Source: Scenedesmus sp. PABB004 (taxonomy: Eukaryota). From it: DNA of 64,000 nt. This document shows positions 11,531 to 64,000 of the stretch, in pieces. The translations under genes and the position numbers were made by a program. A model generated the notes under the pieces. The model ran no database searches and had not been told where the DNA came from. It saw nothing but the letters and a program-made list of their open reading frames with translations. How positions within the stretch are numbered: position 1 is the first letter of the stretch; every line of letters starts with the position of its first letter. Location of the stretch: the NCBI GenBank assembly GCA_014905635.1, contig JABVCE010000008.1, forward strand, positions 868,001 through 932,000, written 5' to 3'.

Positions 11531-13461
11531 TCAGCCCTCGCACGCCGCCACGTCCTCCAGGCCCGCCAGCAGCGCGTCGTCCTCGTCGCCGCCATCGTCG
11601 CCCTCGGTCAGCCAGCCCTGCGGCAGCACCACGCGCGCGCGCGCCCCGCCGCCGGCCTGGCCCGCGCCCTTGAGCCGCGCCACGCGCAGCGCGGCGGCGG
11701 GGAAGGGCTCCGCGGGGTCGTAGCCCCAGCGCCCCGGGTCGCCGACGACCGCCTGCCATTCGTCGACGCGGGTCGCCGCGAACAGCGCGCCCCTGAGCCG
11801 CACCGCGCTGGTGAAGCCCGCGGTGTAGCAGGGGATGAGCTTGCGCATCTTCAGCACCGCGCCGCTGCGGCAGCCAGCAGTGGCAGCGGCGGCGTGGGGC
11901 GAGGTGGGGCGAGGTGGGGGCGCGAGCTCCTGCTGGGCCGCAGGGCTGCAGGGCGCCGCTGGTCACCAGCGCGCGCGGGCCCACGCAGCGCACGCGCACT
12001 CACAGCTCGTCCGCGTCCCACTCCGCCCAGGCCTGCAGGTGGCCCAGCGCGAGCGACAGCACCTCTCCCAGCGCCGGCGGCGCGCGCTCGGGCCAGCGCC
12101 CCGCCAGCATCGCGGCGGCCTCGCTGAACAGCCACGGCCGGCCCAGCGCAGCCCGCCCGATCGCGACGCCTGGAGGCGCGCGGCGGCGGCGGCGGCGGCG
12201 GCGGCCATGGCGGCGGCGGCGCGCGCTCAGGCCCGGCCTCGCCTCGTCTCCCCCAGGGCGCCGCAGCAGCGCTGCGCCGCCGCCGACCTCGGGCGCCGGT
12301 GTCGCGCAGCATCGCCACCGCGTCGGCCGCCTCAAACACGTCGCCGTTGCCGATGACGGGTACGGGCACCGCCGCCGCGAGCGCCGCGACCGCGTCCCAC
12401 TGCGCGGGCGGGGAGTACTGCTGCGCCGCGGTGCGCGCGTGAAGGATGATGCCGGCCGCGCCCTCGTCCGCGGCGATGGCCCCCGCCTGCGCCGGCGGGC
12501 GCGTCGTGGGGCGGGCGCGCTGCCGTCGTGCGCCGCCCACGCGCCCCAGGCCTGCCCAGGCCTGCCGCGCCTGCAGGTACGTCAGCAGCGCGTCGTCCAG
12601 GCCCAGCCGCAGCTTGACCGTCACGGGCACGCCCCCCGCCGCGCCCACCGCGGCCGCCACCAGGCGGCGGAAGAGGCGCGGGCGCAGCGGCAGCGCGCTG
12701 CCGCCGCCCCTGCTCGTTATCTTGCGCACGGGGCAGCCGTAGTTCAGGTCCACGTGCGCCACGCCGCAGTCGCCAACCAGGTGCCTGCGCGCGCGGCGCG
12801 GCGGGGCGGCCGCAGGCGGCCGCCGCGGCGGTCAGGGCCGAGCGAGGAAACCACCGGCTGCACAGTCGCACAGTCGCGCCCGCGCGTCGCCCGGCGCCGC
12901 ATGCCGCGGTGCGCTGCCGCCCACCTGACCGCCCAGTCGATGCTGTCGGGCCTCACGCCGTAGAGCTGGCAGCTCCGCACCGCCTCGTCGGCGTGCCAGC
13001 GCGCGAGGTGGCGGCTCGCGGGCGCGCCGGAGCGCAGCGTCGAGGCGATGACCATCTCGCTCACCGCCAGCCCCGCGCCGGCGGCCTGCGGCGACGCGAC
13101 GCGCGCGCGGCGGCTGGGCAGTCCTCCGGGCGCGCGCCGCCTGGTGTGGCGCTGGCGCCCCTGGTGGTGGTGGTGCGCTGAGCGTGCTGAGCGCGCTGAG
13201 CGCCCGCACCTGGTACATGAGCCGCAGCGGCGCTGCAGTGAGCCCCGCCATCGGCGCGGCCAGCAGCGGCACCTGCGGGTCGGCGGCCGAGCGTCGGCGG
13301 CCGCCCGGCGTAGCACCGCCGCCGCGTGCTGTGCTCAAACTGCCGCGCACCTTGAGCTCCAGGCTTCTCAGCCGGAGCGGTGGCATCTGCTGGGGCGCCA
13401 CGCTCCGTCTGGCCTCCGACACCAGGACGTGCCTCGGCGGCGGCCCAGCGCCGGGCAGCAT
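11531..13461 (-). CDS. tRNA-dihydrouridine synthase (DusB/NifR3-like), multi-exon; start approximate
   Basis: LAAPMAGLT, VSEMV, CQLYG, HVDLNYGCPVRKITSRGGGSAL, VTVKLRLG, LHARTAAQQY, PVIGNGDV, AIGRAALGRPWLF. Confidence 0.88.
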
Positions 13462-26700: not shown

Positions 26701-27321
26701 CTGCGCCGCAACGCGCCGCTCCGCGCCGCGGGCGGCGGCGGGCGCTGCCGCCTGCTCAGCGCTGCGCGGCGCCGGGTTGGCGCGCGCCTTGCGGTGCGGG
26801 TCGGCCGCCAGGTGCGCCACGCGCAGCATGGGGTTGATGGACGTCCCTGGCGGCACGGTCGTTGCGGGGCGCGCGGGGGGTGTCGGTTGGCGCAGCCGCT
26901 GCCGGCACCGGCGGCAGCGGCGGCGGCACCGGCGGCGGCGGCGGCGCGCGGCGCTGCGGTCTGGCTGCACGCTCAGCCTTCAGGTGCCTGAGTCGGTCCG
27001 CGGGCCTCGGCTGCCCCGGCGCTCGGCACGGCGGCAGCGGCGTCGCCCGCCGCGCCGCTGCTGCGGCGCTGCTGCCGGCGCGTGCGCTGCCCGCCGCGCC
27101 TCACCAGTGCGCCATGGCAGGGCGGCGGTGGTGACCACCACGAAGGTCCGCCCCGGCGCCTTGAGCGAGCTGGGGCCGCGCTCCTGCTTGTGCTTGCGGT
27201 GAAACAGGCCGCTCATCCTGCTGGCTGCGAAGCCTGCCAGCCGCCCCAGGCGCAGCCCGACCTGCCAGGCGAGCGTGCTGATGGACGCCTTGACGAGCGC
27301 CGACCGCAGGCCGCCCAGCAT
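23734..27321 (-). CDS. DGD: Digalactosyldiacylglycerol synthase (GT4), multi-exon
   Basis: VVTTAALPWRTGTSINPMLR, YEGRYFPSFGSIFP, DVAILEEPEHLNW, HTNYLSY, CHRAIKLSDAVQ, CNVHGV, GAYFIGKAVWGKGY, VFLNPSTSDVVATTTAEALAMGK, LSWEAATERLL. Confidence 0.92.
25240..25282. repeat. (TGTGG/TGTGA)n microsatellite in a DGD intron
   Basis: gtggtgtggtgtggtgtcatgtgatgtgatgtgatgtgatgtca. Confidence 0.8.
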
Positions 27322-27774
27322 CGAGTTCCGGCGGCGGCAGCGCGCGCACGGCCGCTAGCTCCGCCCGCGGCTGACTGCGCGCTGAGTGTGCGCGCCCTGG
27401 AGCGGGCGTCGAGGTCCGAGGGCGGCAGGGTCGGAGAAGGCACGGGTTCTGCGGCGCAGGGCCGTCTGTGCGTCTTCACGGGTTTTTGCAGCGCGGGCGC
27501 GTCGCCGCGCCCCGCGCCCGCTCACGCGCGCGCACGCACCCCGCGGCGTCGGCGCCCGCGCGTCGCCCTGCTGAAGCTGGCAGCAGGGGCGGCGGCGGGC
27601 GCGCCGCGCGCGCGCACCACCACTAGTCCTGCGGAGCCAACCGCCCACCGCGCTGGGCGGCCCCAACAGTCGGGTCAAGCGCCGCCGTCGTCGGCGCCGT
27701 CAGCACGTGTCACCCCGCTTCTCCCCCCCTCCCTCGCCCTCCCCTCCCCAGCCCGCAGCCGGCTGCGGCGCGCC

Positions 27775-34372: not shown

Positions 34373-34433
34373 ACTCCGCGCGCGCCAGGCGCCGCAGCGC
34401 CGGCGCTGCCGCTCCTCGCTCGCTCGCCCGCCG

Positions 34434-35817: not shown

Positions 35818-37831
35818 ATGGCTTCACGCATACCGAGCATGGCGCAGCAGCAGCGCGGGGCCCTCGGGCCGCGCGCGCCGGCAGGCATGTCGGCCGGCAC
35901 GCGCTGCGGCGCGCTGAGCCGCGTGCGGGTCGCGGCGTCTGCCGCACCGATGAGGTCCAGTGCACCCTGGTCCGCCGGCGTGCTCGCCTGGAGCAGCGCC
36001 GCCGCGCATGTGCCGGCGCGGGCGGCGCCGCGCCGGCAGCAGCGGCCGAGCCGTGCGGTCGCGGCGGGCGCCGCGGCGGAGCGGCTCAACGCCGACGCCG
36101 AGCCCGTGGCCAGCTCGGCGGGCCCCAAGCTGTCGGACCTGCCGATCCAGGCGATCGTCAACCAGCAGGCGCGCGGGCGGCCCGGCGCCGCCGCCGCGCG
36201 CGGGGCTCCGCCGCCGCCCGCGGCGCGCCCACGCCGCCACCGCCGCCGCCTCGCCGCCCGCAGGGCTACGTCGCGCCGGCGCTCGCGCCCGGGGGCCAGG
36301 CGTGGGTGTTTGCTGTGTACGACGAGGCCCAGAAGCTCCAGTTCATCGGCTTCAGCAAGGACCTCACCACCAGCCTGCGCACCGTGCTGGGGCGCCGCCC
36401 CGACAAAGCCTGGTTCTACAAGTGAGCCCTGCCGCTGACACCCAGCCGCCAGCACCAGCAGCAGCAGCGGCAGCAGCAGCAGCAGGGCGGAGGCGGGGCC
36501 GGGTGGCAGCTCGCGCCCGCCCGCGCCGCCGGCCCACGCGCGCCCCGCCGCGCCCCGCCGCGCCGCGCAGGGCGGCGCAGCTCGACAGCGTGGACCAGGA
36601 GGCGATGCTGGCGCTGCGGCAGGCGTGGTTTGACGAGTGCGGCGCGCCGCCGCCGGGCAACAAGCTGGCGCTGGAGCGCAAGGCCTGGCAGGTGGGGCGG
36701 CGCCACGCGCGCGGGCCGGGGCCCGCCCGCACCGGCGGGCCGCGCCGCCGCGCCGCGCCGCGTGCGCGTGAGCGCGGCGCCGCCGCCCGCCCGCCCGCGC
36801 GCAGTCGGCGGTCGACGCGGGCGCCATCAGCGCGCGCGCCAAGCCCGCCGCCGGCGCGGAGAAGGCGCGGGAGCTGCAGGCCGCGCTGCGCGCGCGCGGC
36901 TGCGTCGAGGAGTTTGTGCCAAACCCCGAGCTGCTCGCGGACGGCCAGGTGCGGCGCGGCGCCACCGCCGCGCACGGCCAGGGCGCCCGCCGCGCGGCGC
37001 GCGCGGCGCGCGGCGCGCGCGCCCTCCCCTCTGCGGGCCGAGCTCACGGCCACCCCCTGCTCCTCCTCCCGTTCCCCGATCCCCCTTCCGCCCCCCTCCG
37101 CCCGCGACAGGTCGACTTCCTGCCGCCGACCGGCGGCGGCGAGGCGGCCGCGGCGGCGGGCGCGGCGGCTGCGGCGGCAGCCGCCGAGTCGGGCGCGGCG
37201 CGGCCGGTGCGGTCGGCGTCGGCAGTCGTGGACGGGCAGGCCAAGACGTTTGACGTCGAGTACTGCACCAAGTTCCAGACCAAGGGCGGCTACCTGTTTG
37301 ACGTCAAGCTCAGCTTCGACCACATGGATACCAAGCACAGGCACGCGCCGCGCCCGACCGCAGCTCTTCGAGACGTGCGCGCCGCCGCGGGGCGCGCCCG
37401 CACGCGCCGCCCGCCTGACGCACCCGCCGCCGCCGCCGTGCCCCGCGCGCCGCCTTTGCAGGGTCATCGTGGGGCGGCAGTACTACGAGCCGTACGGCCT
37501 GCCGCCCGAGGCGCCTGTCGAGGCGGCGCTGTCGCTGCTGCTGGGGCTGAAGCTGCCGCGGCACAGCGAGGGCATGCTGGGCAGCGCGGAGTTCCCGGTC
37601 AACTATTTCACGATCAGCGAGGCGGAGCAGTGGTTCGAGGACGACTTTGCCGCCGCGTTCCTGCACGTCACCGGCGCGACGCTCGTGGACGGCACGGGCG
37701 AGCTGTGGCGAATGAACAAGGTCAACGTGTATGGCGGCCGGCTCGAATTTGAGGCCGCCGCCTCGATGGAGGACCCCGCGGCGCTCGGCGCGGCGCTCGT
37801 GGGCCGCGGCCTCGGCGCGATCGGCGGCTGA
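35818..37831 (+). CDS. Putative plastid protein with an N-terminal GIY-YIG-like domain (AtGRXS16-N type) and an unrecognised C-terminal domain
   Basis: Transit-like start; AWVFAVYDEAQKLQFIGFSKDLTTSLRTVLGRRPDKAWFYK; ALRQAWFDECGAPPPGN; C-terminus FDVKLSFDHMDTKHRVIVGRQYY..FPVNYFTISE. Confidence 0.65.
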
Positions 37832-38079: not shown

Positions 38080-40019
38080 TCAGCCCGCCGAGCCCGCGTG
38101 AGCCTGCGCCAGGCGATACTGCAGCCGCAGCTCCGGCCCGGCGCCCCACCAGCCGGCGTACAGCTGCCCCAGCGTGACGCCGTCCGCCAGCGCCCCGGCC
38201 GGCGCGCTGGGCGGCGCCGCGGCGCCGCTGGGCGGCGCCGCGAGCTGCAGCTGCACGTCCGGCGCCTGCGGCCCGCCGCACACGCCCTGCTGGCGCAGCT
38301 GCTGCAGCAGGAGCTGCTTGACGCTGCCCACGGTCAGCTCCATCGGGCACGTGAGGAAGGGCTGGTCCACCGCCGGCTGCGCGTCCTGCGCGCCCTGCGC
38401 GTCCTGCGTGTCCTGCGCGCCCTGCACGTCCGGCGCGTGCTGCTGCTCGCCCTGCTGCTCGCCGCCCGCCGCCGGCAGCAGGTGCACGAGGCACGCTGCC
38501 GGCCGCGGGCCCGCCGCCGCCGCGGCGCGCGCCGCGATGCCCAGCAGCCGCGCCGCCATCTCCTTGGCGAGCAGCTTGCGCTTCTTCTTGGACCCCGCCG
38601 GCGCGGCCGGGCTGCCGACGCCGCCCGCGCCGCCCGCGCCGGCCGCGCCGCTGGGCTGCAGCTGCAGCGGCGGCGGCGCCGCGCTCGCGTAGTGCGGCGG
38701 CGGCGGCGCCGGCGCGCCCGGCGGCGCGAGCCCGTGCGGCCGAGCCGGGCCGCGCTTGGCGCCGACGTCGGAGCGGTAGAAGCTGTCGTCCATGCCGCCC
38801 GACGGCCACGCGCCGCCGTCGCCCCAGCCGCGCTTGCTGCCGGTGAGCGGCTCGCCGCCGCCGCCCGCGCCGCTGTGCGCGCTGCGCAGGCGCTCCGAGG
38901 GCGCGCGCCGCGCGTCGGCCGCGCGCGGCGCGTCCCAGTCGGGCTCGCCGCTCTCCGCGCGCGCCGCCGCGACCGCGGCCGCCTGGCGGGCCTTCATGTG
39001 AGCCAGCTGCGCCTGCCACGCCGCGACGTGGGCCCGGTTGTCGCGGGCAATGAGCGCCTCCTCCTGCGCGCCCAGCGGCGAGCGCCCGGCGGCGGCGCGG
39101 CGGGTTGCGGCGGCCAGCCGCAGCGGCCGCACGCAGGGCGCGGCCGCGCCGCGCGCGTGCAGGACGCGCGCGTTTGCGCGGCGCGGCCCCGCCCCGCCGC
39201 GGCGGCGGCGGCGGGCGCGCCTCTGCGTCGTAGGCGTCCACGTCGCCGTAGAGGGCCTTGATGATCTTGTCAAACGCGTGGTCCTGCAAGCAGACGCGGC
39301 GCCAGCAGCAGCAGGGCGGGCGGGCGCCGGGCCGCGGGCCGAGGCGTGGTGTGGCGGGCGCGGTGCGCGTGCGGCGGGGCGGCCGCGCTGCTGCGCGCTG
39401 CGCGCGGCGGCCGGCCGCACCGGCTTTGTGGCGCGCCGGCTGTGCAGGTGCGCGCGGCACACGGGGCACTCCTTGTCGTCGCCGTGCCTGCCGCGCGCGG
39501 GCGTGCCGGGGGCGGCAGCGCGGCGCGCGGCCGGGCGTCGGCTGCGCGCGCGCGCGCGCGCGGCGCGCGCGTGCGCGCCGGGCATGCGGGCGCGGCGCGC
39601 GGCGGCGCGGCGCTCACCGGCCGGGGACCTTGGCGCGGAGGTACTGCTCGATGCACTTTGCGCAGTAGCGGTGGAGGCAGACCATCGAGATGCGGGCCTC
39701 GCGGATGTAGCCGAAGCACATCGGGCAGCGCGTCTCCTCCTTAAGCTTGGCCAGCTGCACCTGCACCATGCTGCGCCGCCGCCGGCGGCGGCGGCCGGGT
39801 GCGCGTGGGCGAGCGCTCGCACGGCCGCTGCCGCGGTCGCACCCCCGGCGGCGGGCGCGGCGGGCACCTGCGGGGCGCGGTGTACTTGTCGATGGCATCG
39901 GCGAAGACCTTGGAGAGGCGCTCCACCTCCTCGTGGAGGTCCGGGCTCTCCTCGCGCTCGGGCGGAGCCCGCGCCGGCGTTGTGGTGCGGCCGCCGGTGC
40001 GCTGCGCCGCCGCCGCCAT
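38080..40019 (-). CDS. RING1-like (PRC1) E3 ubiquitin ligase with a RAWUL-like C-terminus
   Basis: LKEETRCPMCFGYIREARISMVCLHRYCAKCIEQYLR..KECPVCRAHLHSRR..DHAFDKIIKALYGDVDAYDAEEE; C-terminus PFLTCPMELTVGSVKQLL..TLGQLY..LRLQY. Confidence 0.8.
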
Positions 40020-44176: not shown

Positions 44177-45536
44177 ATGAGCCTGTTCGGCCTGGGCCGG
44201 TGCGGCGCGGCGCGGCGCGCACGCGGCGGGCGCGGCGGCGCGCTGCTCGGCGCCGTCCGCAACCGCCGCGCCCGCGGCGCGGCGGGCGCAGGAACACGGC
44301 CAAGACCTTCCGGCCCAAGAAGAACACGCCCGTGGGAGCCAAGGTGCGGCGCGGCAGCCGGCGGGGGCGGCGCCACGGGCGGCTGGCGCGCGGCGCGCGG
44401 CAGCAGCGGCGCCCGCGCCGACGCGGCCGCCCGGCGCGCCCGCGCCCGCGCCCGTCCCTCCCCCTCCCTCCCCCAACCCCGCAGGGCCTGCAGCTCAAGC
44501 GGCACATCGATGCGACGCTGGGGCAGGGCAACCTGGTGGAGGCGGTGCGGCTGCCGCCGGGCGAGGACATTCAGGAGTGGCTCGCGGTCAACACGGTCGA
44601 CTTCTACAACGCCATCAGCGTCCTCTACTCCACGCTCGCAGAGTTCTGCACCGACCGAAACTGCGAGGTCATGTCGGCGGGCAGCAAGGTGCGGCGGCGC
44701 GCGCCGGCGGCGCGCGGAGGCACGGCGGCGCGCCTGCGGCCGCGCGGCCGAGCCCCGCGCACGTGCGGCGCCTGCGGCCGCGCGGCCGAGCCCCGCGCGC
44801 CCGCGGCCGTCGTGCTGTTGGCAGTACGAGTACCTCTGGGCGGACGGCGTGAAGTACAAGAAGCCGGTGCGGCTGTCGGCGCCCGAGTACGTGGACAAGC
44901 TCTTCGACTGGATCGAGGACCAGGCGCGCGCACGCACGCGGGGCGGGCGGGCGCGGGAGCGCAGCGCAGGCGGCGGCTGCTGCGCCAGGGCCGCGGCGCC
45001 GGCGCGCGGGGAGCGGAGTAGCGGCTGGGCCGGCCCGCCGCCGGCGGCGCCGGCGCGCGCCGCCCGAGCCTGCCGGCCACGCCGCCCGCGCCGGCGCCAC
45101 CCAGATCGACGACCCCTCCGTCTTCCCGGGGCAGTTTGGGGAGCCGTTCCCGCCCAACTTCATGGACGTGGTGCGCACGATCTTCAAGCGCCTCTTCCGC
45201 GTGTACGCGCACATCTACCACTCCCACTTCAAGCAGGTCTGCAGCCTCGGCGAGGAGGCGCACCTCAACACCTGCTTCAAGCACTTCATCTTCTTCGTGC
45301 GGGTGCGGCGCGGCGCGGCGGCGGCGCGCGGCGGGCCGCGCGGCTTGCTGCGGGCCGCGCAGCGGCGGCGGCCCCCTCTGCGCGCTCGCGCCGCGGCCGG
45401 CTGACGCCCGATGCGCGCCGGCGGCGGCGCCCCCCGCCGCTCGCAGCACTTTGACCTTGTGGAGGAGAAGGAGTTGGCCCCACTGGCAGAGCTGATTGAG
45501 CAGTTTTTGGCAGGCAAAATGAACAGCATTCGGTGA
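44177..45536 (+). CDS. MOB1: MOB kinase activator 1, multi-exon
   Basis: MSLFGLGR/NTAKTFRPKK, ATLGQGNLVEAVRLPPGEDIQEWLAVNTVDFYN, YEYLWADG, SAPEY, IFKRLFRVYAHIYHSHF, EEAHLNTCFKHF. Confidence 0.96.
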
Positions 45537-45982
45537 CCCCGGCCAGCGCCGCGCGCCGCGCGCCGGGCGGCGAGCAGCAGCAGCAGCTGGCGCCGCGCCG
45601 CGGCCATTGATTCCGGGCGGCGGCGCTGCTGAGGCTTTTGTGGCGTCCTGCGCGCCGCGCAGCCTGCTGCGCACCGCCCGATGTGACAGTATTTCGAACT
45701 TTGCCGCGCCGCGCTCGCGGCGCCCCCGCCCGCCCGCCGCCGCCCACGACGCGCCCGTAGTTCCGCCAGTGCGCCCACGGGCCGTCCGCGCCCGCCAGCG
45801 CCACGCACCGCCCCCTCGCCTCTCCATGCCTCCGGGCGGCCACCCGCCTGCCCAGCGCGCCTGAGTTCCGCCGACGCGACCCCCCGGAGCGGCTGAGCGC
45901 GCGCCCGCAGCGCGGCGGCGGGGCAGCACGCGCCGGGGCGGCAGCAGCAGCGGGCGCGCCACCGGCGCCGCCGCGCGCAGCC

Positions 45983-48773
45983 ATGTACATCAAGGAGGTC
46001 TCCATCGACGGCTTCAAGTCCTACGCGCAGCGCGTGTGCCTGTCCAACTTTGACCCCGGCTTCAACGCCATCACGGGGCTGAATGGCAGCGGCAAGTCCA
46101 ACATCCTCGACTCGCTCTGCTTCGTGATGGGCATCAAGAACCTCTCCGCGGTGCGCCCGCTAGGCGGCAGGGCGACGTCGGCGCCGACGGCGGCGCCGTG
46201 GGGGCCGTCCGGACAGCGGCGGCGGACGGCAGCGGGCGGCGGGCGGCAGCAGCGGCAGCGGCGTCGCGCGGGCGCCGACGCGGCCGCGCGCTTGCGCACG
46301 CGCGCGGCCGCACGCGCGCCCCGCAGGTGCGCGCCGCGAACCTGCAGGAGCTGGTGTACAAGCAGGGCAGCGCGGGCATCACCAAGGCGACCGTGAGCAT
46401 CGTGTTTGCCAACGACGACCCCGCCAACGGCCCGAGCGGCTACGAGGACAAGCAGACCATCACCGTCACGCGCCAGGCGCGCGCGCGCCACGGCGGCACA
46501 GCTGCGCCAGCTGCAGCGGCTGGCGGCGGCGGCGGTGGCCCGGCCGGGCGGCAGCGGAGGGGCGGCGCGGGCGCCTGACGCCGGGGCGTCGCCGCCGCGC
46601 CCCGCCGCCGCCGCGCGCGCAGATCGTGATCGGCGGCCGCGACAAGTACTCCATCAACGGCCACGCCGCGCAGCAGGGGTGCGCAGCAGCAGCCGCCGCG
46701 GGCGCCCGCGCCGGCAGCCGCCGCTGAGGGGGCCCGCGCCGGCAGCCGCTGAGCGCCCCGCCGCGCCCCGCCGCGCAGCCGCGTCGCGGACCTGTTCCAG
46801 TCGGTGCAGCTCAACGTGAACAACCCCCACTTCCTCATCATGCAGGGCCGCGTCACAAAGGCGCGCCGCGCCGCGCCGCGCGCTCGGCCGCGCTCCCCGC
46901 ACGCTCGGCCGCCCGCCGCGCGCGCGCGGCCACGTCTGCCGCTCACCCCGCGCGTGCTCTGCTGTGCTGCTGTGCTGCGGTCTGCGTGCTGTGTGGTCTG
47001 TGCGCCGCCTCGCCGCGGGGGTCGTTACGTAACTACTCAGATCATGAACATGAAGCCGCCCGAGATCCTGTCCCTGCTCGAGGAGGCGAGCGGGACGAAG
47101 CTGTACGAGCGCAAGAAGGACAGCGCGATGAAGACGCTCGCCAAGAAGCAGACCAAGCTCGACGAGATCGACGAGGTCCGCGCCCGCGCGCGTTGCCTTG
47201 GAGCTGAATAAACAACCTAACTAGCCGCCGGGGCAGCTGCGCGCCGCGCCGCGCGGGGGCGGGCGCGCCACCGGAGCATCGCCGCGCCGCCGACCCATCG
47301 CCGCCCCGCCGCCGCGCAGCTGATGAACACGGAGCTGCTGCCGAGCCTGCACAAGCTGGAGCGCCAGTGCGAGCAGTACCACGAGTTTGCGCAGACGAGC
47401 AGCCGCAACGAGCAGCTCAAGCGCCTCTGCGTGGCCAACGACTACATGACCACGCAGAAGTGAGCGGGGGCAGGCACAGCGCGGCGCTGCTTGTGGGGCA
47501 TGCATGGGCCCGCCCGCCCGCGCTGGCCGGCGGCACGCAGCGCCGGGCTCACGCCACGCCGCCGGCGCCGGCGCCGCCGCGGCGCAGGGCGATCGAGTCG
47601 GGCGAGGCCGAGCTCGCGGCGATGGCGGCGGAGGTCGCGGCGCTGGAGGCGCAGAAGGCGGAGCTCGAGGCCGAGGCGGCCGACAAGGCGGGCGACATCG
47701 CGGGCCTGCAGACGGAGAAGGAGATCCAGGCCGGCGGCGAGGTCAAGGAGCTGCAGGCTGCCGCCGACGAGCTGGCCATGCGGTGCGCGCGGCGCCGCGG
47801 GCGGGCCAGGGGGGGTGCGGGGAGCGCCGCGGGGCGCGCCTGCGCCGGCCGCCTGCTGCTGAACGCCCCGGCGCGCCTCCACCCCGGCTTGTTCATCAAC
47901 CGAAAAGGCTGACCAAGGACACGGCGAGCTGGAAGAACAAGCAGGACATGCTGGAGAGCGAGCAGTCGGGGCTGGCGGGCCTGCAGGCGCAGCTGGCGGA
48001 GCTCAACCAGGGCGAGCTGGACGCGCGCGTCGCGGCCGCGACCGCCGCGCGCGACGCGGCCGCCGCCGAGCTGCAGGCCGCGGAGCACGGCGTCGAGGCG
48101 GCGACGCGCGAGCTGGCGGGTGGGTGGCGCCGCGGCGCGGCGCGCGGCGCGGCGCGGCGCGGCGCGGCACGCGCGGGCGCCGCCGACGCCGCGCCGCCGC
48201 AGGCGCCGAGACGGGCGACGGGCGCGACGAGTCGAACAAAAGCCTGCAGGAGCGTGTGGCGGACGCGCAGAACGCGCAGACCGCGGCCGACGCGGAGGCC
48301 AAGGCCGCGGGCATCAAGGCCAAGCACCTCACCAAGCAGGCCGCCGAGCAGCGCAAGGCGCTCGCCAGCAAGGACAAGGAGGCCGGCGCGATGCGCGCGC
48401 AGCTCGACAAGGCCCAGGCGGCGGTCGACAAGTGCAACGCCGCGCTCAAGGTGGGGGGGGGGGCCTCGCGCGGCGCAGCGCAGGCCTCGCCGGCCCCGCG
48501 CCCGCATGACGTGCGCTCACGCCCACGCGCCGCCGCCGCCGCCGCCGCCCCGCGTGCCCGCCCCCGTCCGCGGCGGGTCAGGCGCTCAACTACGACGCCG
48601 CGGCCGCCGAGGCGTTCGAGGAGGCGCGGCGCGGCGGTGTCGCCGCGGTGCGCGCGGCCAAGGAGGCGGCGGAGGCGCTGTCGGCGCAGATGGGCGGCAT
48701 GGATTTCACCTACCGCGACCCCGAGCGCGGCTGGGACCGCAGCCGCGTCAAGGGGGTGCGCTGCGTCACGCCA

Positions 48774-48808
<35 letters not shown>

Positions 48809-51800
48809 GCAGCGGGCGCTGCGGGAGGCGGCGGCGCGTGGGAGCAGGCGCAGCGCGGGCGGAGCGCGGGCTGAGTGCGCGTGCGCGGCGTGTGCGCCCG
48901 CAGGTGGTGGCCAAGCTCGTGCGCGTGAAGGACCCCGCCGCCGCCACGGCGCTCGAGGTCGCCGCCGGGGGGCGGCTCTACCAGGCGCGCGCCCGCCCGC
49001 GCGGCTGGGCGCCGCGCGGCGCCCCCGCGCCCGCCGCCGGGCGGCTCACTGGGCCGCGCGGCCCGGCCGGCCGACGCGCCGCGCCGCACTGCTGCCGCCG
49101 CCGCGCTGCCAGGTGGTGGTCGACACGGACGCGAGCGCCAAGGCGCTGCTGGAGCGCGGGCAGCTCACCAAGCGCGTCACGATCATTCCGCTCAACCAGG
49201 CGCGCCGCCCTGGGGGCTGGGAGGGGGTGGGGGCAGCGCAGCAACGCACACATGGGCAGGCGCTGGCCGCGCCGCCGCGGCGGCCACGTGAGCGGGCGCC
49301 CCGCTGGGCCGCCGCCGCGCCGCAGGTGCGCTACAGCGAGGCGGCACCCGGCGTGCTCGCGGCGGCGGAGCGCCTCGGCGGCGGCAAGGCGCAGCCGGCG
49401 CTGCAGCTGGTCGGCTACGAGCCGGACGTGGAGGCGGCGGTCAAGTACGCGTTTGGCCCGTCCTTCATCTGCAAGGCGCGACAGCAGGGGGGGGGGCTAG
49501 GAGCTGGCGGCGGGCGCGGCCAGCTTGCGGCCAGCCGGGTCTCGAGCGCGCGCCGCTGAGCCCGACGCATGTGTGCGCGCGCGCGCAGGACGCGGGCACG
49601 GCCAAGAAGCTCGCGTTTGCGCGCGAGGTCGCGCAGCGCTGCATCACGCTCGAGGGTGACGACTTCAACCCCGGCGGCCTGCTCACGGGTGCACGGCGGC
49701 GCGCCGGCAGGCCGCCCGCCGCAGCGTGGCGCGGCGCGCGCGCGACGGCGGCGGCGCGCGCGCTGACCTGCGGCCGGGCGGCGGCGCCGCCGCCCGCGCG
49801 CGCAGGCGGCAGCCGCGGGTCGGGCGGCAGCCTGCTGCTGAAGCTGCACGAGCTGCTGGCGGCGGAGGACGCGCTCGCGGGCGCGCAGGCGCGCCTCGCC
49901 GACGCGGAGGCGCAGCTCGCGGCGCTCGCGCCGGTGGCCAAGCAGTACAGGAAGTGAGCGGCGCGGCAGGGTGGTGCTGCGCGCCGGCCGCCGGCGCCGC
50001 CGGCGCCGACCGCCCGCCCCCCCCCCCCCCCCCCGTGCCGCGTGTCGCGCGCCGCGCAGGCTGCAGCAGGACCTGGAGCTGCAGCAGAACGGCCTGGAGC
50101 TGCTGCAGGGCCGCATGCAGGGCAGCGAGGGCCACCAGCTCGCCGAGGCGCTCGCGGCGACCGAGGCGCAGCTCGCGGCGGCGCAGGAGGAGGCCGACGG
50201 CGCGGCGCGCAAGAAGGCCGACATGGTCGCGCTCGCCAAGGCGCGCCGCCGTGCCGCCGCCGCCGCATGCTGGCGCTGGCCGCGGCCGCGCGCCGCGCCG
50301 CGGCTGACGCTGGCCTGCCCGCCGCCGCGGCCGCAGCGGCTGGAGCGGGAGATCGCTGACTTCAGCAAGGACACCGACAAGCGGGTCAAGGCGGCAAAGG
50401 CCAAGCTCAAGGCCGCCAAAACGGTGCGGCCGCGCGCCTGCCTGGCTGGCGCGCTGGCGGGCTGGCGCGCTGGCCCAGGCGGCGCTCGGCGCGGGGCGCC
50501 CACGGCCGGCGCCGCCCCGCCGCGCAGGCGCTCGAGGGCGCGCGCAAGGCGCTGCGCGCCGCCGAGGCGGCACTGGCCGAGGCGGCCGCGGAGCGCGACG
50601 CGGGCGCGGGCGAGCGCGGGCAGCTGGAGCAGCAGGTCGCGGCGAGCCAGGCGGCCATCGCGGGTGCGGGCCGGTGCTGTGATTGATTGAATCTGGGCGG
50701 CGCGCGGCCAGCCGGCCGACCGCTGACCGCCCGTCGCCGACCGCGCAGGCCTCGCGGGCGAGGTGGAGGCGCTCAAGGCGCAGGTGGACGCCACGAGCGC
50801 GCAGCACGCGGACGCGGCGGCGCAGCTCGAGGCCAAGCGCGCGCGGCTGCGCGAGTGCGACGCGGGTGCGTGCCGCGCGTGCGGCCGCGCCGCCGGGCGG
50901 CGCGGCGCGCGACGGGGGTCGCGGGCCGCGCGGCGGCTGACCGCCGGCCGCGCCTCGCTCGCGTCGCCACAGAGATCCGTGGGCTCGAGAAGGAGCGCCA
51001 GGCGCTGCTCAAGAAGGCGGAGCAGCTGGAGGTGGAGCGCCGCCGGCGCGACAACAAGTGCGCGGCGGCGCACCGCGCACACCCGCGCCGCGCCGCGGGC
51101 TACTGGCCCTGCCGGGTCCCGCCGAGCCCCGCCGCCCCCGCCCGCACGCGCGTGCTCGCGCAGGCTCTCCGCGCGCCGCGCCGAGGCGGGCAGCGGCGCG
51201 GAGCGGCTGCGCCGGCTGGAGGCGGACTACGAGTGGGTGTCGCGCGAGAAGGCGAGCTTTGGCCGCGGCGAGTACGACTTTTCCCGCGTCGACACCGCGG
51301 CGCTCTTCCGGGAGTACGAGGAGACGGAGGCGCGGCTCAAGGCGCTGCGCGAGCAGGGCGCCATCCAGCGCCAGGTGGGGCCGGAGCAGGGCACGCGCGC
51401 GCGCGCGCGCGCCGTCCCGGCGCGGCGGCGGACGCGCGCAGGGGGGCCGCGCCGCGGCTCCTAAACCCACGCCCGCGCCGCCGGGCCGCGCCGCGCCCGC
51501 CAGGCGGAGCTCATGTACCGCCGCAACAAGGAGGAGGTGGAGGGCCTGCAGGCCAAGCGCAAGCAGGTGCTGCCGCGCGCCGCGCCGCGCCGCGCCGCGC
51601 CGCGCCGCGCCCAACCGCGCCAGTGCCAGCGCCAGCGCCGGCGCCAGCGCCAGCGCTGGCACCAACGTTGTCCCGCCACCCCGCCGCCCCGCCGCCGCTC
51701 CACCTCGCCCGCGCAGGTCCAGGACGACCGCACGCAGATCACGGCCGTGATCAGCCAGCTGGACGAGAAGAAGCGCCTCGCGCTGGAGGAGACGTGGAAG

Positions 51801-52322
51801 CAGGCGCGCGCGCTCGCACCCCGCCGGCTGCGCGCACGACGCGGGCAGCGCCGCGCCGCGCTGCCTAGCCCCCCTTGGGCGGGCGGGCAGGCGGGCGGCG
51901 TGACACGCCCTCCACCCTCCCCGCCCCCCGTGGTGCGCAGGTGGACGGCGACTTCAACGCCATCTTCAGCACGCTGCTCCCGGGCACGTCCGCGCGGCTC
52001 ACGCCGCCCGAGGGTGGCACCTTCCTCGACGGCCTCGAGGTGCGACCGCCGCGCGTGGCGGGGCGGGGAGGGCGCGGCGGCGCCACGTGGTGTGAGCCGC
52101 CCGGCCCGCGCGCGTGCGCGCGCGCTGAGCTGACGGAGCGCTCCGCCCCTGCCGCTGCGGCGCAGGTGCGCGTCGCGTTTGGCGGCGTGTGGAAGGAGTC
52201 GCTCACCGAGCTCAGCGGCGGCCAGCGCAGCCTGCTCGCGCTCAGCCTGGTGCTCGCGCTGTGCAGGTGCGCGGCCGCGCCCGCTCGTCCGCGCGCTCCA
52301 TGCGCCTCCGCACCGTCCGCGC

Positions 52323-52418
<96 letters not shown>

Positions 52419-52829
52419 TCAAGCCCGCGCCCATCTACATCCTCGACGAGGTCGACGCGGCGCTGGACCTCAACCACACGCAAAACATCGGGGCCATGAT
52501 CAAGCAGCACTTCCCGCAGGTCCGGCGCCGCGCACCGCGCCACACACTGCACCCGCGCCGCGCCGCGCCGCGCCGCGACCCCGCCGACGCGCGCCCCGCG
52601 GCCCTCCACCCCCCTGCAGAGCCAGTTTATCGTTGTGAGCCTGAAGGAGGGCATGTTCAACAACGCCAACGTCATCTTCAGGACCAAGTTCGTGGACGGC
52701 GTGAGCACCGTCACGCGCACCGTCAACGACACGGGCAGCGGGCGCGAGAACGCGGCCGCGGGCGGCAAGGCGGCGGCCGCGCGCGGCGGCGCGGGCCGCG
52801 CGGCACTGCGGGACAGCAACCGCGCGTGA
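45983..52829 (+). CDS. SMC2: Condensin subunit SMC2, ~27 exons
   Basis: [46 protein letters not shown], hinge ([33 protein letters not shown]), [38 protein letters not shown]. Confidence 0.97.
52326..52415. repeat. (CA)~45 microsatellite directly abutting a 3' splice site in SMC2
   Basis: Perfect CA run ending ..acacag|gttcaag (FKPAP exon). Confidence 0.97.
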
Positions 52830-52899
52830 CGCGCCGCGGCCGCGCGGGCTGGGGCGGGGTGGGGGCGGGCGGTTGACCGACGCGGGCGGGCTGGCGGCG

Positions 52900-52904
52900 T
52901 GTAA
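52900..52904 (+). promoter_or_regulatory. TGTAA poly(A) signal of SMC2
   Basis: gcgtgtaaac ~70 bp after the stop codon. Confidence 0.6.
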
Positions 52905-53054: not shown

Positions 53055-56000
53055 TCAGTAGCCGAGCGGCGCGCCGTCCTTGCGCGCGTCGCTCGCGGCC
53101 AGCAGCACGCCGCGCGCCGCGCCGCCGCCGGCCGCGTGGTCGCCGCCGCGCAGCTGCAGCCCCTCGGCCGCCGCGGCGCCGGCGTCATAGCTCACAAAGA
53201 TGGCCTGCGCGACGCCGAGCGCAAACGCGGCCGGCGTCGTGACCTGCCCGCGCGCGCGCAGCGCCGACACCGCGCCCGCCGGCAGCTGGTGATCGGTGCG
53301 CCCCCTGCGGCGCGGCGCGGCGCGGTGTGGGCGGCCGCCCGGCGGGCACACGCGGGAACAGGCAGGCACGCGGGCGCGCCGGCCCCGCTGCGCCCGCCCC
53401 CCGGGGCCTCACCAGCTGACGTTCTCGAAGAACGCGTCCGCCCGCGGCAGCAGCTGGTCGTGCACGCGCGCGCCCGACACCGCGGCGCCGACGTCGGCGC
53501 CCTCGAGCAGCAGCCGCGCGAGCGTGGTGAGCGTCGCGCTGACGATGAGCGGCCCGCCGCTCGCGCCCGCGGTCGCCACGAGGCGCCCGCTGCGCGCGTG
53601 CGCCACGACGAGCGGGCTCATCGCCGACAGCGGGCGGCGCCCCGGGTAGATGAAGTTGGCCTCGCTGGCGTGCGGTGTGACGGTGCTCGACCTGCGCCAC
53701 GCGGGCGTGTGTGAGTGTGTGCGTGTGGGCGCGTGTGTGTCGGCGCCGCCCGCCGCGCCCCGCCGCCGCCGCCGCCGCCGCCGCAGCCGCGCTGTCCCCT
53801 GCCGTGAGCTCGGGCGCTCACGTGTTGGGGAAGGCAAAGTCGTCCATGGTGTTGCCGAGCAGGATGCCGGTCGAGGGAGACACGACCGCCGAGCCAAAGG
53901 GCCCGTTGACCGACGTCGTGACCGCCACGGCGTTGCGCTCCGCGTCGACGATGCTGAAGTGGGTCGTCCCGCGCTCCTCGGGTGGCGCGTCGCCGCGCGG
54001 GTTCCACCGCCCGCCGTAGGCCTCGTCCGGCAGCACGCCGTCGTCGCGCGTCGCGGCGCGCAGCGACGCAGCGAAGCGGGCGTCCAGCAGGTCGGCCGCC
54101 GCGGCGGCGATGCGGTCGGCGTGCGGGAATGGCGCGGCCGGCGTGCCGGGGTCGCCGAGCGCCGTGCGCACGGCAAAGCCGTGCTTCATCGCCTCGACCT
54201 GCGCGCAGCGGCGGCGCGGCGTGTGGGCCGCCAGCGGCAGGCAGGGCAGCGGCGGGCGCGGCAGCGGCGAGCGGCGCGGGCGGCGCGCCGCACCAGCCGG
54301 TGCAGGCCCAGCCCGCCGTCGGCGGGGTGCGGTGCGGGGCCGAAGGCCGCGCGCGGCTGCGCCCCGCCCGGCGCGTCACTGCTGGCGTTGCTGGCGCCCG
54401 CCGTGAGCGCCGTGTTGCCATAGCCGGCCAGGAACTGCAGGGCGAACGCGACCACCGCCGCCGACGACGGCGGCGGCGGCAGCACCAGCTCCAGCTCGCC
54501 GACCGTCACGCGCAGCGGCTCGCGCACCGCGGGCTTGGCGGCCTGCAGGTCGGCCGCGCTGACGATGCCGCCGGCGGCCGCGATCTCGGCCGCCATCGCG
54601 GCGGCGACGTCGGGGCGGTTGAGGTAGGCCGGCCCCTCGGCAGCGACTGCGCGGCGCGGCGCGGCGCGGCGCATTGAGCGGGCTGCCGACGCGGCGGCCG
54701 GCGACGCGGCGGGCGGGGCGCGCGGTGAGCGCCCGCTCACTCTTGTCGAGCGTGTCGGCGAGGCGCGGGCGCTTGCAGCAGAGCTCGCCGACGCGCGGCA
54801 GCCGCCAGCCGCCGCCGGGCGTGGGCACCATGAAAGCTTCGCGCAGGCCGGGGCTCGCCTGCGCACGCCGCGCGGCGCGGCGCGGCGTGGGCGGGGAGCG
54901 CGGGGCTGCGTGGGCCGCGCGGGCGACGCCGGGCGGCGGCCGCGGCGGGCGCCGAGGCCCGGCGCGCGTGCGGCGCGCGCGCGGCGCGCACCGCGATGCG
55001 CGCGGCATTTCGGGGGCCGCTCATCACGTAGACCAGGTACGGGTGCGCGGCCATGCCCTGCCGCGCGAGCTCTGCCGCGGGGCGCACGAGCCGCGCCCAC
55101 GGCAGGCGGCCGTGCGCCGCGTGCAGCGCGCCGAGCCCGGGCAGCTCGCCCGGCACCGCCACTGCGAGGCCGCCGTCGAGGGAGGCGTTGGCGGGGAGGC
55201 CTGGCGGCGGCGCGGGAGGCACGGCGGGCGGCGGCGGCGCGCGTCGGCGGCGCACGGCGGCGCCCGGCGGCGGCCGCACGCGGCCGCGCGCTGTCCCACG
55301 CGCGGACCCGCAAACATGTCGGCCGTCGCCGCGGCGGGCGCGGTCTCTCGCGCGTCCCAGAAAGCCGCGCTGCCGTTGGCGAGGCGCAGCGTGATGAACG
55401 CGCCGCCGCCGAGGCCGCTGCTGCTGGGGTTGACGACGCCCAGGCACAGCGCGACCGCGACCGCCGCGTCGGCGGCGTGCCCGCCCTCGGCCAGCACGTC
55501 GCGCCCGACCTGGCTGCAGCGGCTGTTGTCCGCCGCGACCATGCCCTCCGCCGCCGCGGCCCGGCGGCTGAAGTTGCGGAAGTCAACCTGCGGGCAGCGG
55601 CGGCGCGGCGCGGCGTGGGCTGCCGCGCCCGGCCCCTCCGACACTAGCATGGCCCCACCCTCGCCCGCGCTGCGCGCTGCACGCTGCGGGGCCGCACCTC
55701 GGGCAGCGGCAGGCGGTTCACGACCTCGCACCGCAGCCGGGGGCCGACGCAGGGCACGAAGCCCTCCCCGCCGCCGCCGTCCGGCGGCTCGGCCGCGAGC
55801 TGCGCAAAGCCCTGCGTCCCGCCGCCGGCGCCGACGTTCCACACCGCGCCGCCGCCGTCCTTGTCCAGCGCGTGCGGCGCCGCGGCGGCGGCGCCCTCGC
55901 CGCGCGGCGGCGCCTGCTCCCGCTGCACCGCGGCGGGCCGCGCCGCCAGCAGCACCGCGAGCAGCACGGCCGCCGCGATCATGGCGCCGCCGACTGCGGG

Positions 56001-61732: not shown

Positions 61733-64000
61733 TCAGCGCGGCCGCGGCTCGTGGCGCTCCGCCGCGGCCACCGCCAGGCTGCGGATGCGGTTCACCGCCG
61801 CGGCAATCTCAAACCGCCGCGGCCGCGCGAGGTTGCCGAGCAGCAGGTGCGGCGCCAGCACGTCGAGGCCCTGCGCGGCGGCGGTCGCTCGAGCTGGTCG
61901 CGGCGGGAGCGCGGCTCGCCTCGTCGCGCTGCGCGCGCGCGCGCACGCCGGCCGCCGCCGCCCGGGGCGCCCCGCGCGGGCGCCGTCGCCGGCGCGCAGT
62001 CAGTGCGACCCCCCTCTCCCGCGCACCTGCTCGTCGATCGCGGCGTCGAGCTCGTCGAGCCACTGCAGCAGCGTGCGCCCGCCGCCGCCCCGCGGCCCCG
62101 CGCCCTGGGGCCCCAGCCGGGCCTGCAGCCACTTGAGCGCGTCCGCGACGGCCCGCGTCTGCGAGCGGTCCACGAGCTGCTCCGCCGCGGCCAGCGGGAT
62201 GTCCTGGTCGCCAAACTGCCAGGCGCGGGGCGGCGGCGCCGCGTCGAGCGCGGCGGCGGCAGCGGCGGCGGGCGCGGGCGCGGCGCGCGGCGGCGGCGCG
62301 CGGCGCGTGGCGCGCGGCCGCGGGCGCGCCTGGATGTGGTGCAGGCCGCGCACGTGCGTCTTGACGCCCCGCCCGGCATCGCCGCCGCCACCGTGCACGC
62401 GCAGCGGCACGCGCGGCGTCACCCACACGCCGCCGCCCGGCGCCGGCGGCGGCGGCGCGACGCCGGCGCCCGCGAGCGTGGCCGCGTGCGCCGCGGCGAT
62501 GGCGTGCGCGGCGGCCGTCTGGTCGCTCGGGGCGTAGCAGTGCATGACAATCACCTGAACAATATGCGGGGGGGCACTGAGCGTTTCAATTGACTTGACT
62601 GATTGACTGACTTGTGTGATTTGGGGCGGGGCGCGTGCCGCGGGCGCGGCGCTCGCGCGTGAATCACTGGCGCCGCCGCGGCCCGCTGGCTGCGCCCGCG
62701 CTGCTCGGCCGTGCTCTCCCGCGGCGGCGCAGGCGCACCGTGTCGGCGAGCTCGAAGTAGTCGCCGCTGCCGCCCATGACCAACACGGTCGACACGCCCG
62801 CGCCGCGCAGCTGCCTGCGCGGAGGCGCGCGGCGCGACGCGTGCGCGCGGCGCCGGCGGCCGGCGCCCGCACGCACCCCGCGCCCGCACGCACCCCGCGC
62901 CCCGCTCCGCGCGCCACGCACGCGCCCCCTCGCCCGCGTGGTTGAGTGCGCACCTGATGCGCGCGCTGAAGGGCGTGATCGGCTCGCGGCTCGGCGGCAC
63001 GAGCGCGGCCATGCGGGGGTCACGCACCATGAGGTTGGTCGCGCACGTGTCCTCGTCCAGCAGCAGCGCCGACGCGCCCAGCTCCACCGCCTCCTGCACG
63101 GCGGCGGCGGCGGTTGCGCGAGCGGCGGCGGTTGCGCGAGCGGGGGCGGCGCCGCGAGCAGGGGCGGCGGCGGGGGAGGGGAACGCCCTTGGGACGCTCG
63201 GGCCACGCGCAGGGCTGCGCGCGGGGCGGCGCGCGGCGCGTGCCTGCATGTTGGTGGCCTGCGATGTCGAGCCGCTCGCGTCGTCGGAGCGGAACGCGGC
63301 CGTGCTGGCGCCGCCCGGGAGGTTGTTGATGAAGGGACTGTGTGTGTGATTGTGTGTGTGTGTTGTGTGTGTGGATGGGTGGGAGGGGGCGTGTCGAGGG
63401 AGGGAGGGGCAGGGGCAGGGGGCAGGGAGGGCCAGGCCGCGCCGGCCGGCGCGCGCCCTGCGGCGGCCGGCGCGGCTTGCCCACCTGATGTCGACGCCCT
63501 CGACGCGCCGCCCGTCCTCCGCCGCTACCTTGACCGCGCCCGGCACCGCCACCACGAGCTCGCGCCCGTCGCCGGGGACCTGCGTGCGGCGCGCGCGCGC
63601 GCGCGTAGCGCCGGCGTCGGGCGCCGGGCGGCAGCCCCTCGCCGCCACCAGGCACGCACGGGCCCGCCCGCCACGTCTGCGCCCCCACCACACACGCACG
63701 CAACACGCCCACCTTGTTGTACACGCCCGCCTCGAGCGCCTGCAGCAGCGTGGACTTGCCGTGGAAGCCGCCGCCCGCGATGAGCGTGACGCCGCGCCGC
63801 ACGCCCAGCCCCCGCACGCGCCCCCGGTGCGGCAGGTCCACCTCGACACACAGGCTCGGCGGCGCCGCAAACGGCACCAGCCCCGGGCCGGGCGGCATCG
63901 GCAGGTCGCTCGCGCCGCTGCGGCGCGGGCGCGGGCGGGCGGGCGCGGGGCTCGGGCGGGGCGCGCGCGCGCGGCCAGCCTGCCGGGCGCGCAGCGGCAC
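61733..64000 (-). CDS. Predicted ABC-class ATPase (COG3044/PF09818 type), multi-exon, 5' end outside window
   Basis: GVTLIAGGGFHGKSTLLQALEAGVYNKVPGDGRE, AEDGRRVEGVDISPFINNLP, DASGSTSQA, LLLDEDTCATNLMVRD, EPITPF, VMGGSGDYFELAD, PRRFEIAAAVNRIR. Confidence 0.9.

What the first reader, a model, noticed from the sequence alone, without database searches (positions are those of the whole stretch)
45983..52829. Very high frequency of GC-AG introns
Seen: keeping SMC2 homology requires GC donors at 46477, 46861, 48985, 49200, 49476, 50241 and 51804, i.e. 7 of ~26 introns, all AG|GCGCG. More occur in MOB1 (~44924), DGD (~25151, 25420, 26304, 26787), Dus (~12570), the helicase (~17745), the GIY-YIG gene (~36169, 37341), RING1 (~39220), the coiled-coil gene and the ATPase (~63243). 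Known: GC-AG is usually about 1% of introns. Inference: GC pressure plus a tolerant U1/U6 recognition that depends on an exonic AG; standard gene predictors would mis-annotate this genome.
Basis: partly seen in the sequence, partly recalled or inferred. Interest (0 to 1): 0.7.

Follow-up and report, generated by a model that had tools for sequence, protein, structure and literature searches.

The report
Abundant GC-AG introns, high-GC alga
About one intron in four in this extremely GC-rich green-algal DNA starts with GC instead of the usual GT, almost only where the exon ends in AG; the same excess is already known from other GC-rich algae.

Summary
A spliced protein-to-genome alignment of the SMC2 gene (45983-52829, +) against its Tetradesmus obliquus orthologue (82% identical) gives 26 introns. 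Forbidding GC donors deletes or garbles conserved residues at every one of the seven.

- Supported by homology: DGD (4), helicase (1), MOB1 (1).
- Supported by Pfam profile collinearity: Dus (1), ATPase (1).
- Supported only by my own gene parser: GIY-YIG (2), RING (1).

Over five genes taken whole, 14 of 60 supported introns are GC-AG (23%, against about 1% in plants). One gene (GGT) has 0 of 7.

GC donors depend on an exonic AG: 13/14 against 13/46 for GT donors. They are all phase 0, which follows from GC3 of 97.6%.

The best reading is ordinary U2-type GC-AG introns. They accumulate under extreme GC pressure where exon-end pairing compensates the +2 mismatch.

This kind of excess is in print for Aureococcus, Micromonas pusilla and Chlorella sp. 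(Iwata and Gotoh 2011), so this is a new member of a known kind.

No RNA reads, whole genome or U1/U6 genes were available. The scan's earlier notes held nothing on this genome.

The parts
45983..52829 (+). SMC2 gene: 27 exons, 26 introns, 7 of them GC-AG
   Evidence: Spliced alignment to P0007 and ten other SMC2 proteins.
46477..46622 (+). SMC2 GC-AG intron 2, cag|GCGCGCGC, phase 0
   Evidence: TVTRQ|IVIGG is collinear with the orthologue. The GT-only model deletes conserved residues.
46861..47040 (+). SMC2 GC-AG intron 4, aag|GCGCGCCG, phase 0
   Evidence: GRVTK|IMNMK is collinear.
48985..49112 (+). SMC2 GC-AG intron 11, cag|GCGCGCGC, phase 0
   Evidence: GGRLYQ|VVVDT. The GT-only model loses 9 conserved residues.
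49200..49325 (+). SMC2 GC-AG intron 12, cag|GCGCGCCG, phase 0
   Evidence: IIPLNQ|VRY.
49476..49588 (+). SMC2 GC-AG intron 13, aag|GCGCGACA, phase 0
50241..50336 (+). SMC2 GC-AG intron 16, aag|GCGCGCCG, phase 0
   Evidence: MVALAK|RLEREIA.
51804..51940 (+). SMC2 GC-AG intron 23, cag|GCGCGCGC, phase 0
   Evidence: ETWKQ|VDGDF.
24400..27327 (-). Digalactosyldiacylglycerol synthase gene. 10 supported introns, 4 of them GC-AG, with donors at 26787, 26304, 25420 and 25151, all AG|GC and all phase 0.
   Evidence: Spliced alignment to P0242 (T. obliquus), P0246 and P0245. Gene ends are approximate.
17530..22800 (-). Resolved part of a DEAD/DSHCT helicase gene. 13 supported introns. GC donors at 17745 (aagcag|GCGCGGGC) and 18346 (gagcgc|GCGCGCGC, no AG, weaker support).
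   Evidence: The N-terminal third (to about 24258) is not resolved.
44924..45104 (+). MOB1 GC-AG intron, gaccag|GCGCGCGC, phase 0
   Evidence: Alignment of the flanking exons to solved MOB1A gives Q86|L87.
12487..12570 (-). Dus GC-AG intron, ctgcag|GCGCGGCA, phase 0
   Evidence: Pfam PF01207 positions are collinear across the junction, 142|143.
63094..63243 (-). ABC_ATPase-family gene GC-AG intron, atgcag|GCACGCGC, phase 0
   Evidence: Pfam PF09818: the exon ends at profile position 169 and the next starts at 170.
53121..55750 (-). Gamma-glutamyltranspeptidase gene. 7 supported introns, all GT-AG. Serves as a counter-example gene.
   Evidence: Spliced alignment to P0363, P0370 and P0395.
36169..36263 (+). 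Candidate GC-AG intron, cagcag|GCGCGCGG, unverified
   Evidence: Motif and SMC2-trained parser only.
37341..37461 (+). Candidate GC-AG intron, gcacag|GCACGCGC, phase 2, unverified
39064..39220 (-). Candidate GC-AG intron in the RING-finger gene, gcagag|GCGCGCCC, unverified

Best explanation
These are ordinary major-spliceosome (U2-type) introns whose second base is C instead of T. They make up roughly a fifth to a quarter of the introns in this stretch of nuclear DNA, which comes from a green alga close to Tetradesmus/Scenedesmus.

Proposed mechanism:
1. The genome is under very strong pressure toward G and C. That pressure also acts on the T at intron position +2.
2. A T-to-C change there removes one base pair with U1 snRNA.
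3. The change is tolerated almost only where the exon ends in AG, because those two bases add pairs on the exon side.
4. Third codon positions are almost always G or C. An exon-final AG is therefore nearly confined to NAG codons, and GC donors sit at phase 0.
5. At such AG| phase-0 sites, C and T at +2 are about equally common. Elsewhere T is kept.

Shown here: the introns, their donor letters, the link to AG and the link to phase.
Inferred: the substitution pressure, the U1 pairing logic, and that the introns are actually spliced at these points.
For: Donor identity by homology:
- SMC2 7/26.
- DGD 4/10 and helicase 2/13.
- MOB1 1/4.
- GGT 0/7.
- Total 14/60 = 23%, Wilson interval 14-35%.
- In addition, Dus and ATPase by Pfam collinearity.

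Some references are transcript-derived by their source names (P0021, P0246). The junctions are therefore continuous in the mRNA of relatives.

Link to AG and phase:
- AG at -2,-1: GC donors 13/14, GT donors 13/46, p = 2e-5.
- Phase 0: GC donors 14/14, GT donors 21/46, p = 1.4e-4.
- AG| phase-0 donors: 13 GC against 11 GT.
- Non-AG donors: 1 GC against 33 GT.

Composition: exon GC3 is 97.6% and intron GC is 85%. Intron-interior C/(C+T) is 0.876. Relative to that, T at +2 is favoured about 6-fold at AG| sites and about 230-fold elsewhere.

The rest of the donor is the same in both classes, G[T/C]GCGC.

An SMC2-trained parser recovers 25 of 26 junctions in three independent genes. Window-wide it gives 29 GC among 128 introns, 23%.

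Published precedent:
- GC-AG excess in high-GC algae, with a canonical U1 5' end (PMC3033335, passages).
- Compensation at the other donor positions (PMC1557818, passage).
Against: - No RNA evidence. No RNA run was listed and no genome is held.
- Homology fixes a junction only to about one codon. A CG 'donor' one codon downstream scores nearly as well (294 against 336).
- The share is uneven between genes, from 0/7 in GGT to 4/10 in DGD.
- One GC donor (18346) lacks AG.
- The motif is not sufficient. Three in-frame AG|GCGCG sites inside conserved SMC2 exons are not used.
- The U1 pairing count assumes a canonical U1 5' end, recalled rather than read from this organism. It shows parity, not an excess, for GC donors.
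- Distant references produce spurious GC donors in low-complexity stretches, so the counts depend on my support filter.
Confidence: 0.8

Rival explanations
1. The spliceosome itself has changed: a variant U1 5' end, U6 ACAGAG box or protein partner accepts C at +2. GC donors are then recognised as well as GT donors, rather than merely tolerated.
For: At AG| phase-0 sites, GC donors are as common as GT donors (13 against 11). The authors of PMC3033335 raise base modification or U1 snRNP proteins as a possibility for Aureococcus and M. pusilla (passage).
Against: GC is almost absent where the exon does not end in AG (1 against 33). That is what a normal U1 with compensation predicts. T at +2 is still about 6-fold over the neutral expectation even at AG| sites. 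U1 5' ends are canonical in the two precedent algae. No U1 or U6 gene lies in the window to test.
Confidence: 0.12
2. Nearby GT donors are the ones really used, and the GC sites are artefacts of aligning to predicted proteins.
For: No RNA data were available. Several references are themselves gene predictions.
Against: GT-only models delete or replace residues that are identical in the orthologue at all 7 SMC2 sites. They lose 252-345 score units with close references. Transcript-derived references agree (P0021, P0246). MOB1, Dus and ATPase junctions fit solved structures or Pfam profiles to the residue. At 44924 the first downstream GT would add about 30 residues.
Confidence: 0.03
3. The GC-AG introns are recent copies of a spreading intron-generating element (introner), as in Micromonas pusilla and Aureococcus.
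For: The two algae with the highest published GC-AG shares are also the ones I recall as carrying introners. That link is recalled, not read.
Against: The best pairwise similarity among 64 introns (median 50 bits, maximum 68) is close to that of composition-matched shuffles (median 40-45, maximum 60-68). The top pairs mix GT with GC introns and both orientations.
Confidence: 0.03
4. T-to-C errors of sequencing or assembly at donor sites.
For: Extreme GC content can trouble base callers. That is general knowledge and was not tested here.
Against: 16 sites would have to be hit at exactly position +2, and nearly only after AG, while the exons stay intact and 82% identical to the orthologue.
Confidence: 0.02

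Closest known systems
Abundant GC-AG introns of high-GC algae: Aureococcus anophagefferens, Micromonas pusilla, Chlorella sp. (Iwata and Gotoh 2011, PMC3033335; pelagophyte preprint 10.1101/2024.10.30.620910)
   Same: A GC-AG share far above 1% in a nuclear genome of very high G+C. Published values are 39.6%, 22.2% and 7.7% and 14-17%. Here it is 23% (14/60).
   Different: A different lineage (Sphaeropleales, next to Tetradesmus). The local GC is higher still, 75-85% against 64-70%. Here the share is measured on one 64-kb window by homology, not genome-wide. The strict tie to exonic AG and phase 0 is shown here; I did not see it described in the passages I read.
Ordinary U2-type GC-AG introns of animals and plants (Sheth et al. 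2006, PMC1557818; Pucker and Brockington 2018, PMC6310983)
   Same: GC...AG ends, no U12-type motif, and a better match at the remaining donor positions that offsets the +2 mismatch.
   Different: The frequency there is 0.4-1.2%, against about 23% here. The intronic consensus here is GCGC, not AAGT, so the compensation sits on the exon side (AG).
Evolutionary GT-to-GC drift of donor sites in mammals (Churbanov et al. 2008, PMC2490688, abstract read)
   Same: A directional gain of GC donors from GT donors.
   Different: Those authors favour selection for alternative splicing. Here composition pressure is the likelier driver. The direction of change could not be tested without orthologous DNA.

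Membership tests
U2-type GC-AG introns | Intron begins with GC and ends with AG at junctions that restore the reading frame | tested here: met
   16 junctions fixed by orthologue, solved-structure or Pfam collinearity.
U2-type GC-AG introns | The intron is removed from the mRNA at these points | not testable with these tools
   No RNA run was listed and no genome is held. Only inferred from protein collinearity and transcript-derived relatives.
U2-type GC-AG introns | No U12-type 5' motif (GCATCC or ATATCC at +1 to +6) | tested here: met
   The GC donors read GCGCGC, GCGAG[CT], GCGCGG, GCGCGA or GCACGC. The motif is as given in PMC1557818 and PMC3033335.
U2-type GC-AG introns | A stronger match at other donor positions compensates the +2 mismatch | tested here: met
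   AG at -2,-1 in 13/14 GC against 13/46 GT donors. +3 G is 14/14, +5 G is 14/14, and +6 C is 11/14 against 23/45.
High-GC algal genomes rich in GC-AG introns | Genomic G+C well above 60% | tested here: met
   The window is 74.7-84.6% GC per 2 kb. Whole-genome value unknown.
High-GC algal genomes rich in GC-AG introns | GC-AG share many times the usual 1%, genome-wide | tested here: inconclusive
   14/60 by homology and 29/128 by parser in this window. There is no genome to count genome-wide.
High-GC algal genomes rich in GC-AG introns | Canonical U1 snRNA 5' end | not testable with these tools
   Rfam finds only two U3 genes in the window.
Introner-derived introns | Introns fall into families of similar sequence | tested here: not met
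   Similarity is no higher than in composition-matched shuffles.

The most novel reading that the evidence does not exclude
In this lineage the working 5' splice-site rule has become AG|GY: once the exon ends in AG, T or C at +2 is close to interchangeable. That would give what may be the highest GC-AG share, and one of the most GC-rich nuclear genomes, among green plants. It would possibly be helped by a change in U1, U6 or their proteins. If so, the organism would be a natural system for asking how the spliceosome reads position +2.
Probability: 0.2. Interest if true: 0.6.

Novelty: new member of a known kind. Interest (0 to 1): 0.35.

Why it matters
- Annotation. A gene finder restricted to GT-AG would damage about one intron in four. 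In SMC2 it loses or garbles conserved residues at seven places.
- Biology. The window gives a clean natural experiment on donor-site compensation. C at +2 is accepted about as often as T after an exonic AG, and almost never otherwise. Codon bias then confines such introns to phase 0.
- It extends the link between extreme GC content and GC-AG introns to another green-algal order.
- It does not open a new kind of mechanism.

Tried and rejected
- RNA evidence: no RNA holder was listed for 45900-52900, so read laying was never used.
- Whole genome: none is held. There could be no genome-wide donor count and no U1/U6 search.
- Close relatives' DNA: the single metagenome scan returned 80 loci, but the best is only 82% identical in exon 1. 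The 96-100% relatives seen as proteins were not among them. Orthologous donor comparison (GT against GC at the same site) could not be done, and the 80 loci were not used further.
- tblastn alone was useless for boundaries, because HSPs run through the stop-poor introns.
- The first, loose setting of my gene parser over-predicted badly (637 introns, genes merged). Only the tuned and filtered version is reported. It is trained on SMC2, so its GC calls lean toward AG|GCGCG.
- Distant references add false GC donors in coiled-coil or low-complexity parts. I counted junctions supported by close references. In most, at least 5 of 8 flanking residues are identical on both sides without gaps. I kept 18346, 19717, 54991, 54293 and 53412 on weaker but repeated support. 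I left out the helicase N-terminal third and 21494, 21341, 54397 and 54386.
- Pfam gave nothing for the 36-38 kb gene or the exons around 39220.
- Literature: no paper in the held library on GC-AG frequency in Scenedesmaceae or Sphaeropleales. That covers these searches only.
- The earlier scan notes concern Ostreococcus and do not bear on this finding.

Full report
WHAT THE DNA IS

The window is 74.7-84.6% G+C in every 2-kb block. It carries two plant-type U3 snoRNA genes. Its genes are closest to those of Tetradesmus obliquus and Scenedesmus. SMC2 is 1001/1214 identical to T. obliquus P0007. The T. obliquus SMC2, helicase and DGD orthologues carry neighbouring locus tags on one contig. It is therefore nuclear DNA of a green alga near the Scenedesmaceae.

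From the SMC2 model, exons are 71% GC with GC3 of 97.6%, and introns are 85% GC.

CHECKING THE OBSERVATION IN SMC2

I wrote a protein-to-genome spliced aligner with all three intron phases, split codons and AG acceptors. I ran it on 45701-53100 with P0007.

- With GT and GC donors it returns 26 introns within the gene. It also returns one spurious terminal intron, which vanished when the region was cut at the stop codon.
- Seven introns have GC donors, at 46477, 46861, 48985, 49200, 49476, 50241 and 51804. Each is AG|GCGCG and phase 0.
- With GT only, the alignment drops conserved residues at every one of these places. Examples are VTRQ, VTK and VAAGGRLYQ. Elsewhere it invents a micro-exon. 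Gap columns rise from 13 to 49.

GC is the commonest dinucleotide here (21% of positions), so I repeated the run with each of the other 15 dinucleotides as the second allowed donor. GC gives the largest gain (336). CG comes second (294), at the same seven sites shifted by one codon. The other dinucleotides gain between 0 and 199. Homology alone thus fixes each boundary to about one codon. The shared AG|GCGCG motif at all seven sites fixes it further.

Ten more SMC2 references were tried. Eight give 7/7. A partial transcript-derived protein gives 6 of the 6 in its range. Mesostigma gives 6/7.

OTHER GENES

DGD (about 24.4-27.3 kb, minus strand) has 10 supported introns.

The DEAD/DSHCT helicase has 13 supported junctions in its resolved part. 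The N-terminal third could not be resolved.

MOB1: the exon before 44924 ends at the residue matching Q86 of solved MOB1A. The exon after the acceptor at 45104 starts at L87. The first downstream GT would add about 30 residues.

Dus 12570 and ATPase 63243 fit Pfam profiles without a gap or overlap, at 142|143 and 169|170.

All 7 of its supported junctions are GT.

Taking the five genes whole, 14 of 60 introns are GC-AG. That is 23%, Wilson interval 14-35%, p = 1e-14 against 1.2%.

A WINDOW-WIDE ESTIMATE

I built a simple gene parser from SMC2 codon usage and SMC2 splice-site matrices. Once tuned, it recovers DGD 10/10, helicase 12/12 and MOB1 3/4 junctions.

After filtering for short introns between well-scoring exons, it introns in the window, 29 of them GC (23%). 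Outside the five checked genes it GT and 13 GC. Only 6 of those 13 have AG: 6737, 36169, 37341, 39220, 56840 and 57264. These remain predictions, and the parser leans toward the SMC2 motif.

WHAT DISTINGUISHES GC DONORS

- AG at -2,-1 occurs in 13/14 GC donors and 13/46 GT donors (p = 2e-5).
- All 14 GC donors are phase 0, against 21/46 GT donors (p = 1.4e-4).
- Among donors that follow AG at phase 0 there are 13 GC and 11 GT. Among donors not after AG there is 1 GC and 33 GT.

The phase bias follows from codon usage. With GC3 of 97.6%, an A at -2 is nearly impossible in phase 1 and needs an AGN codon in phase 2. AG exon ends are therefore almost all NAG codons.

The intronic part of the donor is the same in both classes, G[T/C]GCGC.

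Counting Watson-Crick pairs to a canonical U1 5' end gives 4.64 for GC and 5.09 for GT donors, not significantly different. The U1 sequence is recalled, and it matches the consensus quoted in PMC3033335.

In intron interiors C/(C+T) is 0.876. Against that neutral expectation, T at +2 is favoured about 6-fold after AG and about 230-fold otherwise.

MECHANISM

The simplest account is the known one for GC-AG introns. U1 tolerates the +2 mismatch when the rest of the site pairs better (PMC1557818, passage). Here that operates in a genome whose substitution pressure pushes every tolerated T to C.

The pressure itself, whether mutation bias or biased gene conversion, is inferred from composition only.

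The motif is not sufficient. Three in-frame AG|GCGCG sites lie inside conserved SMC2 exons, while AGGTG[CA]G is absent from 4898 nt of SMC2 and DGD exons. What tells true GC donors from these decoys is not explained.

RIVALS

- A changed spliceosome is not excluded, since no U1 or U6 is available. It is not required either, and the near-absence of GC donors without AG argues for normal U1 logic.
- Use of nearby GT donors is contradicted at every tested site.
- Introner origin is not supported. Introns are no more alike than composition-matched shuffles.
- Sequencing error would have to strike +2 after AG specifically.

WHAT IS KNOWN

Iwata and Gotoh 2011 (PMC3033335; abstract and passages read) report GC-AG shares of 39.6% in Aureococcus, 22.2% in Micromonas pusilla and 7.7% in Chlorella sp. 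They tie this to high G+C, call the origin an enigma, and find canonical U1 5' ends.

A 2024 preprint gives 14-17% for pelagophytes. Typical values are 0.4-1.2%.

My searches of the held library found nothing on Scenedesmaceae or Sphaeropleales. Supplementary tables of the surveys, which I did not open, may hold per-species values.

VERDICT

The phenomenon is a new member of a known kind. The new detail here is the sharp AG and phase-0 rule.

Noticed in passing
window 14092-14307 (-) and 16795-17016 (-): Two plant-type U3 snoRNA genes about 2.7 kb apart (105.7 and 86.2 bits).
   Followed up: no
window 15001-16017 (-) and 34203-35177 (-): A DUF3181-family gene seems to be present twice. The exon pattern, coding scores and Pfam coordinates are the same, and both copies have the same predicted donor, gactac|GCCCGCAA, at 15288 and 34448. 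This looks like a segmental duplication about 19 kb apart.
   Followed up: partly
window 1-64000: Extreme composition: 75-85% GC throughout, GC3 of 97.6% in SMC2, and introns (85%) richer in GC than exons (71%). I know of no described green-algal nuclear genome this GC-rich. That is recalled, not searched.
   Followed up: partly
window 48624, 49889, 51330 (+): In-frame AG|GCGCG sites inside conserved SMC2 exons that are apparently not used as donors. 49889 matches true donors over 9 bases.
   Followed up: partly
window 46325, 49324, 52164 (+): Three SMC2 exons begin with GTGCGC right after the acceptor AG, so the acceptor junction itself looks like a perfect GT donor (AG|GTGCGC).
   Followed up: no
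window about 52330-52416 (+) and the acceptor at 18584 (-): A long (CA)n microsatellite fills the 3' part of SMC2 intron 25 and supplies its acceptor, ACACACACAG. A helicase intron ends in the same way.
   Followed up: no
window 10171-10953 (+): A dihydrodipicolinate synthase (DHDPS) domain is encoded in one 261-residue uninterrupted stretch, among genes whose exons are mostly 30-70 residues long.
   Followed up: no
window 27778-28330 (-): A histone H3-type gene split by introns (Pfam Histone positions 27-63 and 85-122 on separate exons).
   Followed up: no
   Followed up: partly
window 17.5-27.3 kb and 46-53 kb: Gene neighbourhood is shared with Tetradesmus obliquus. The orthologues carry locus tags OEZ86_007870 (SMC2), _007879 (helicase) and _007880 (DGD) on one contig.
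   Followed up: no
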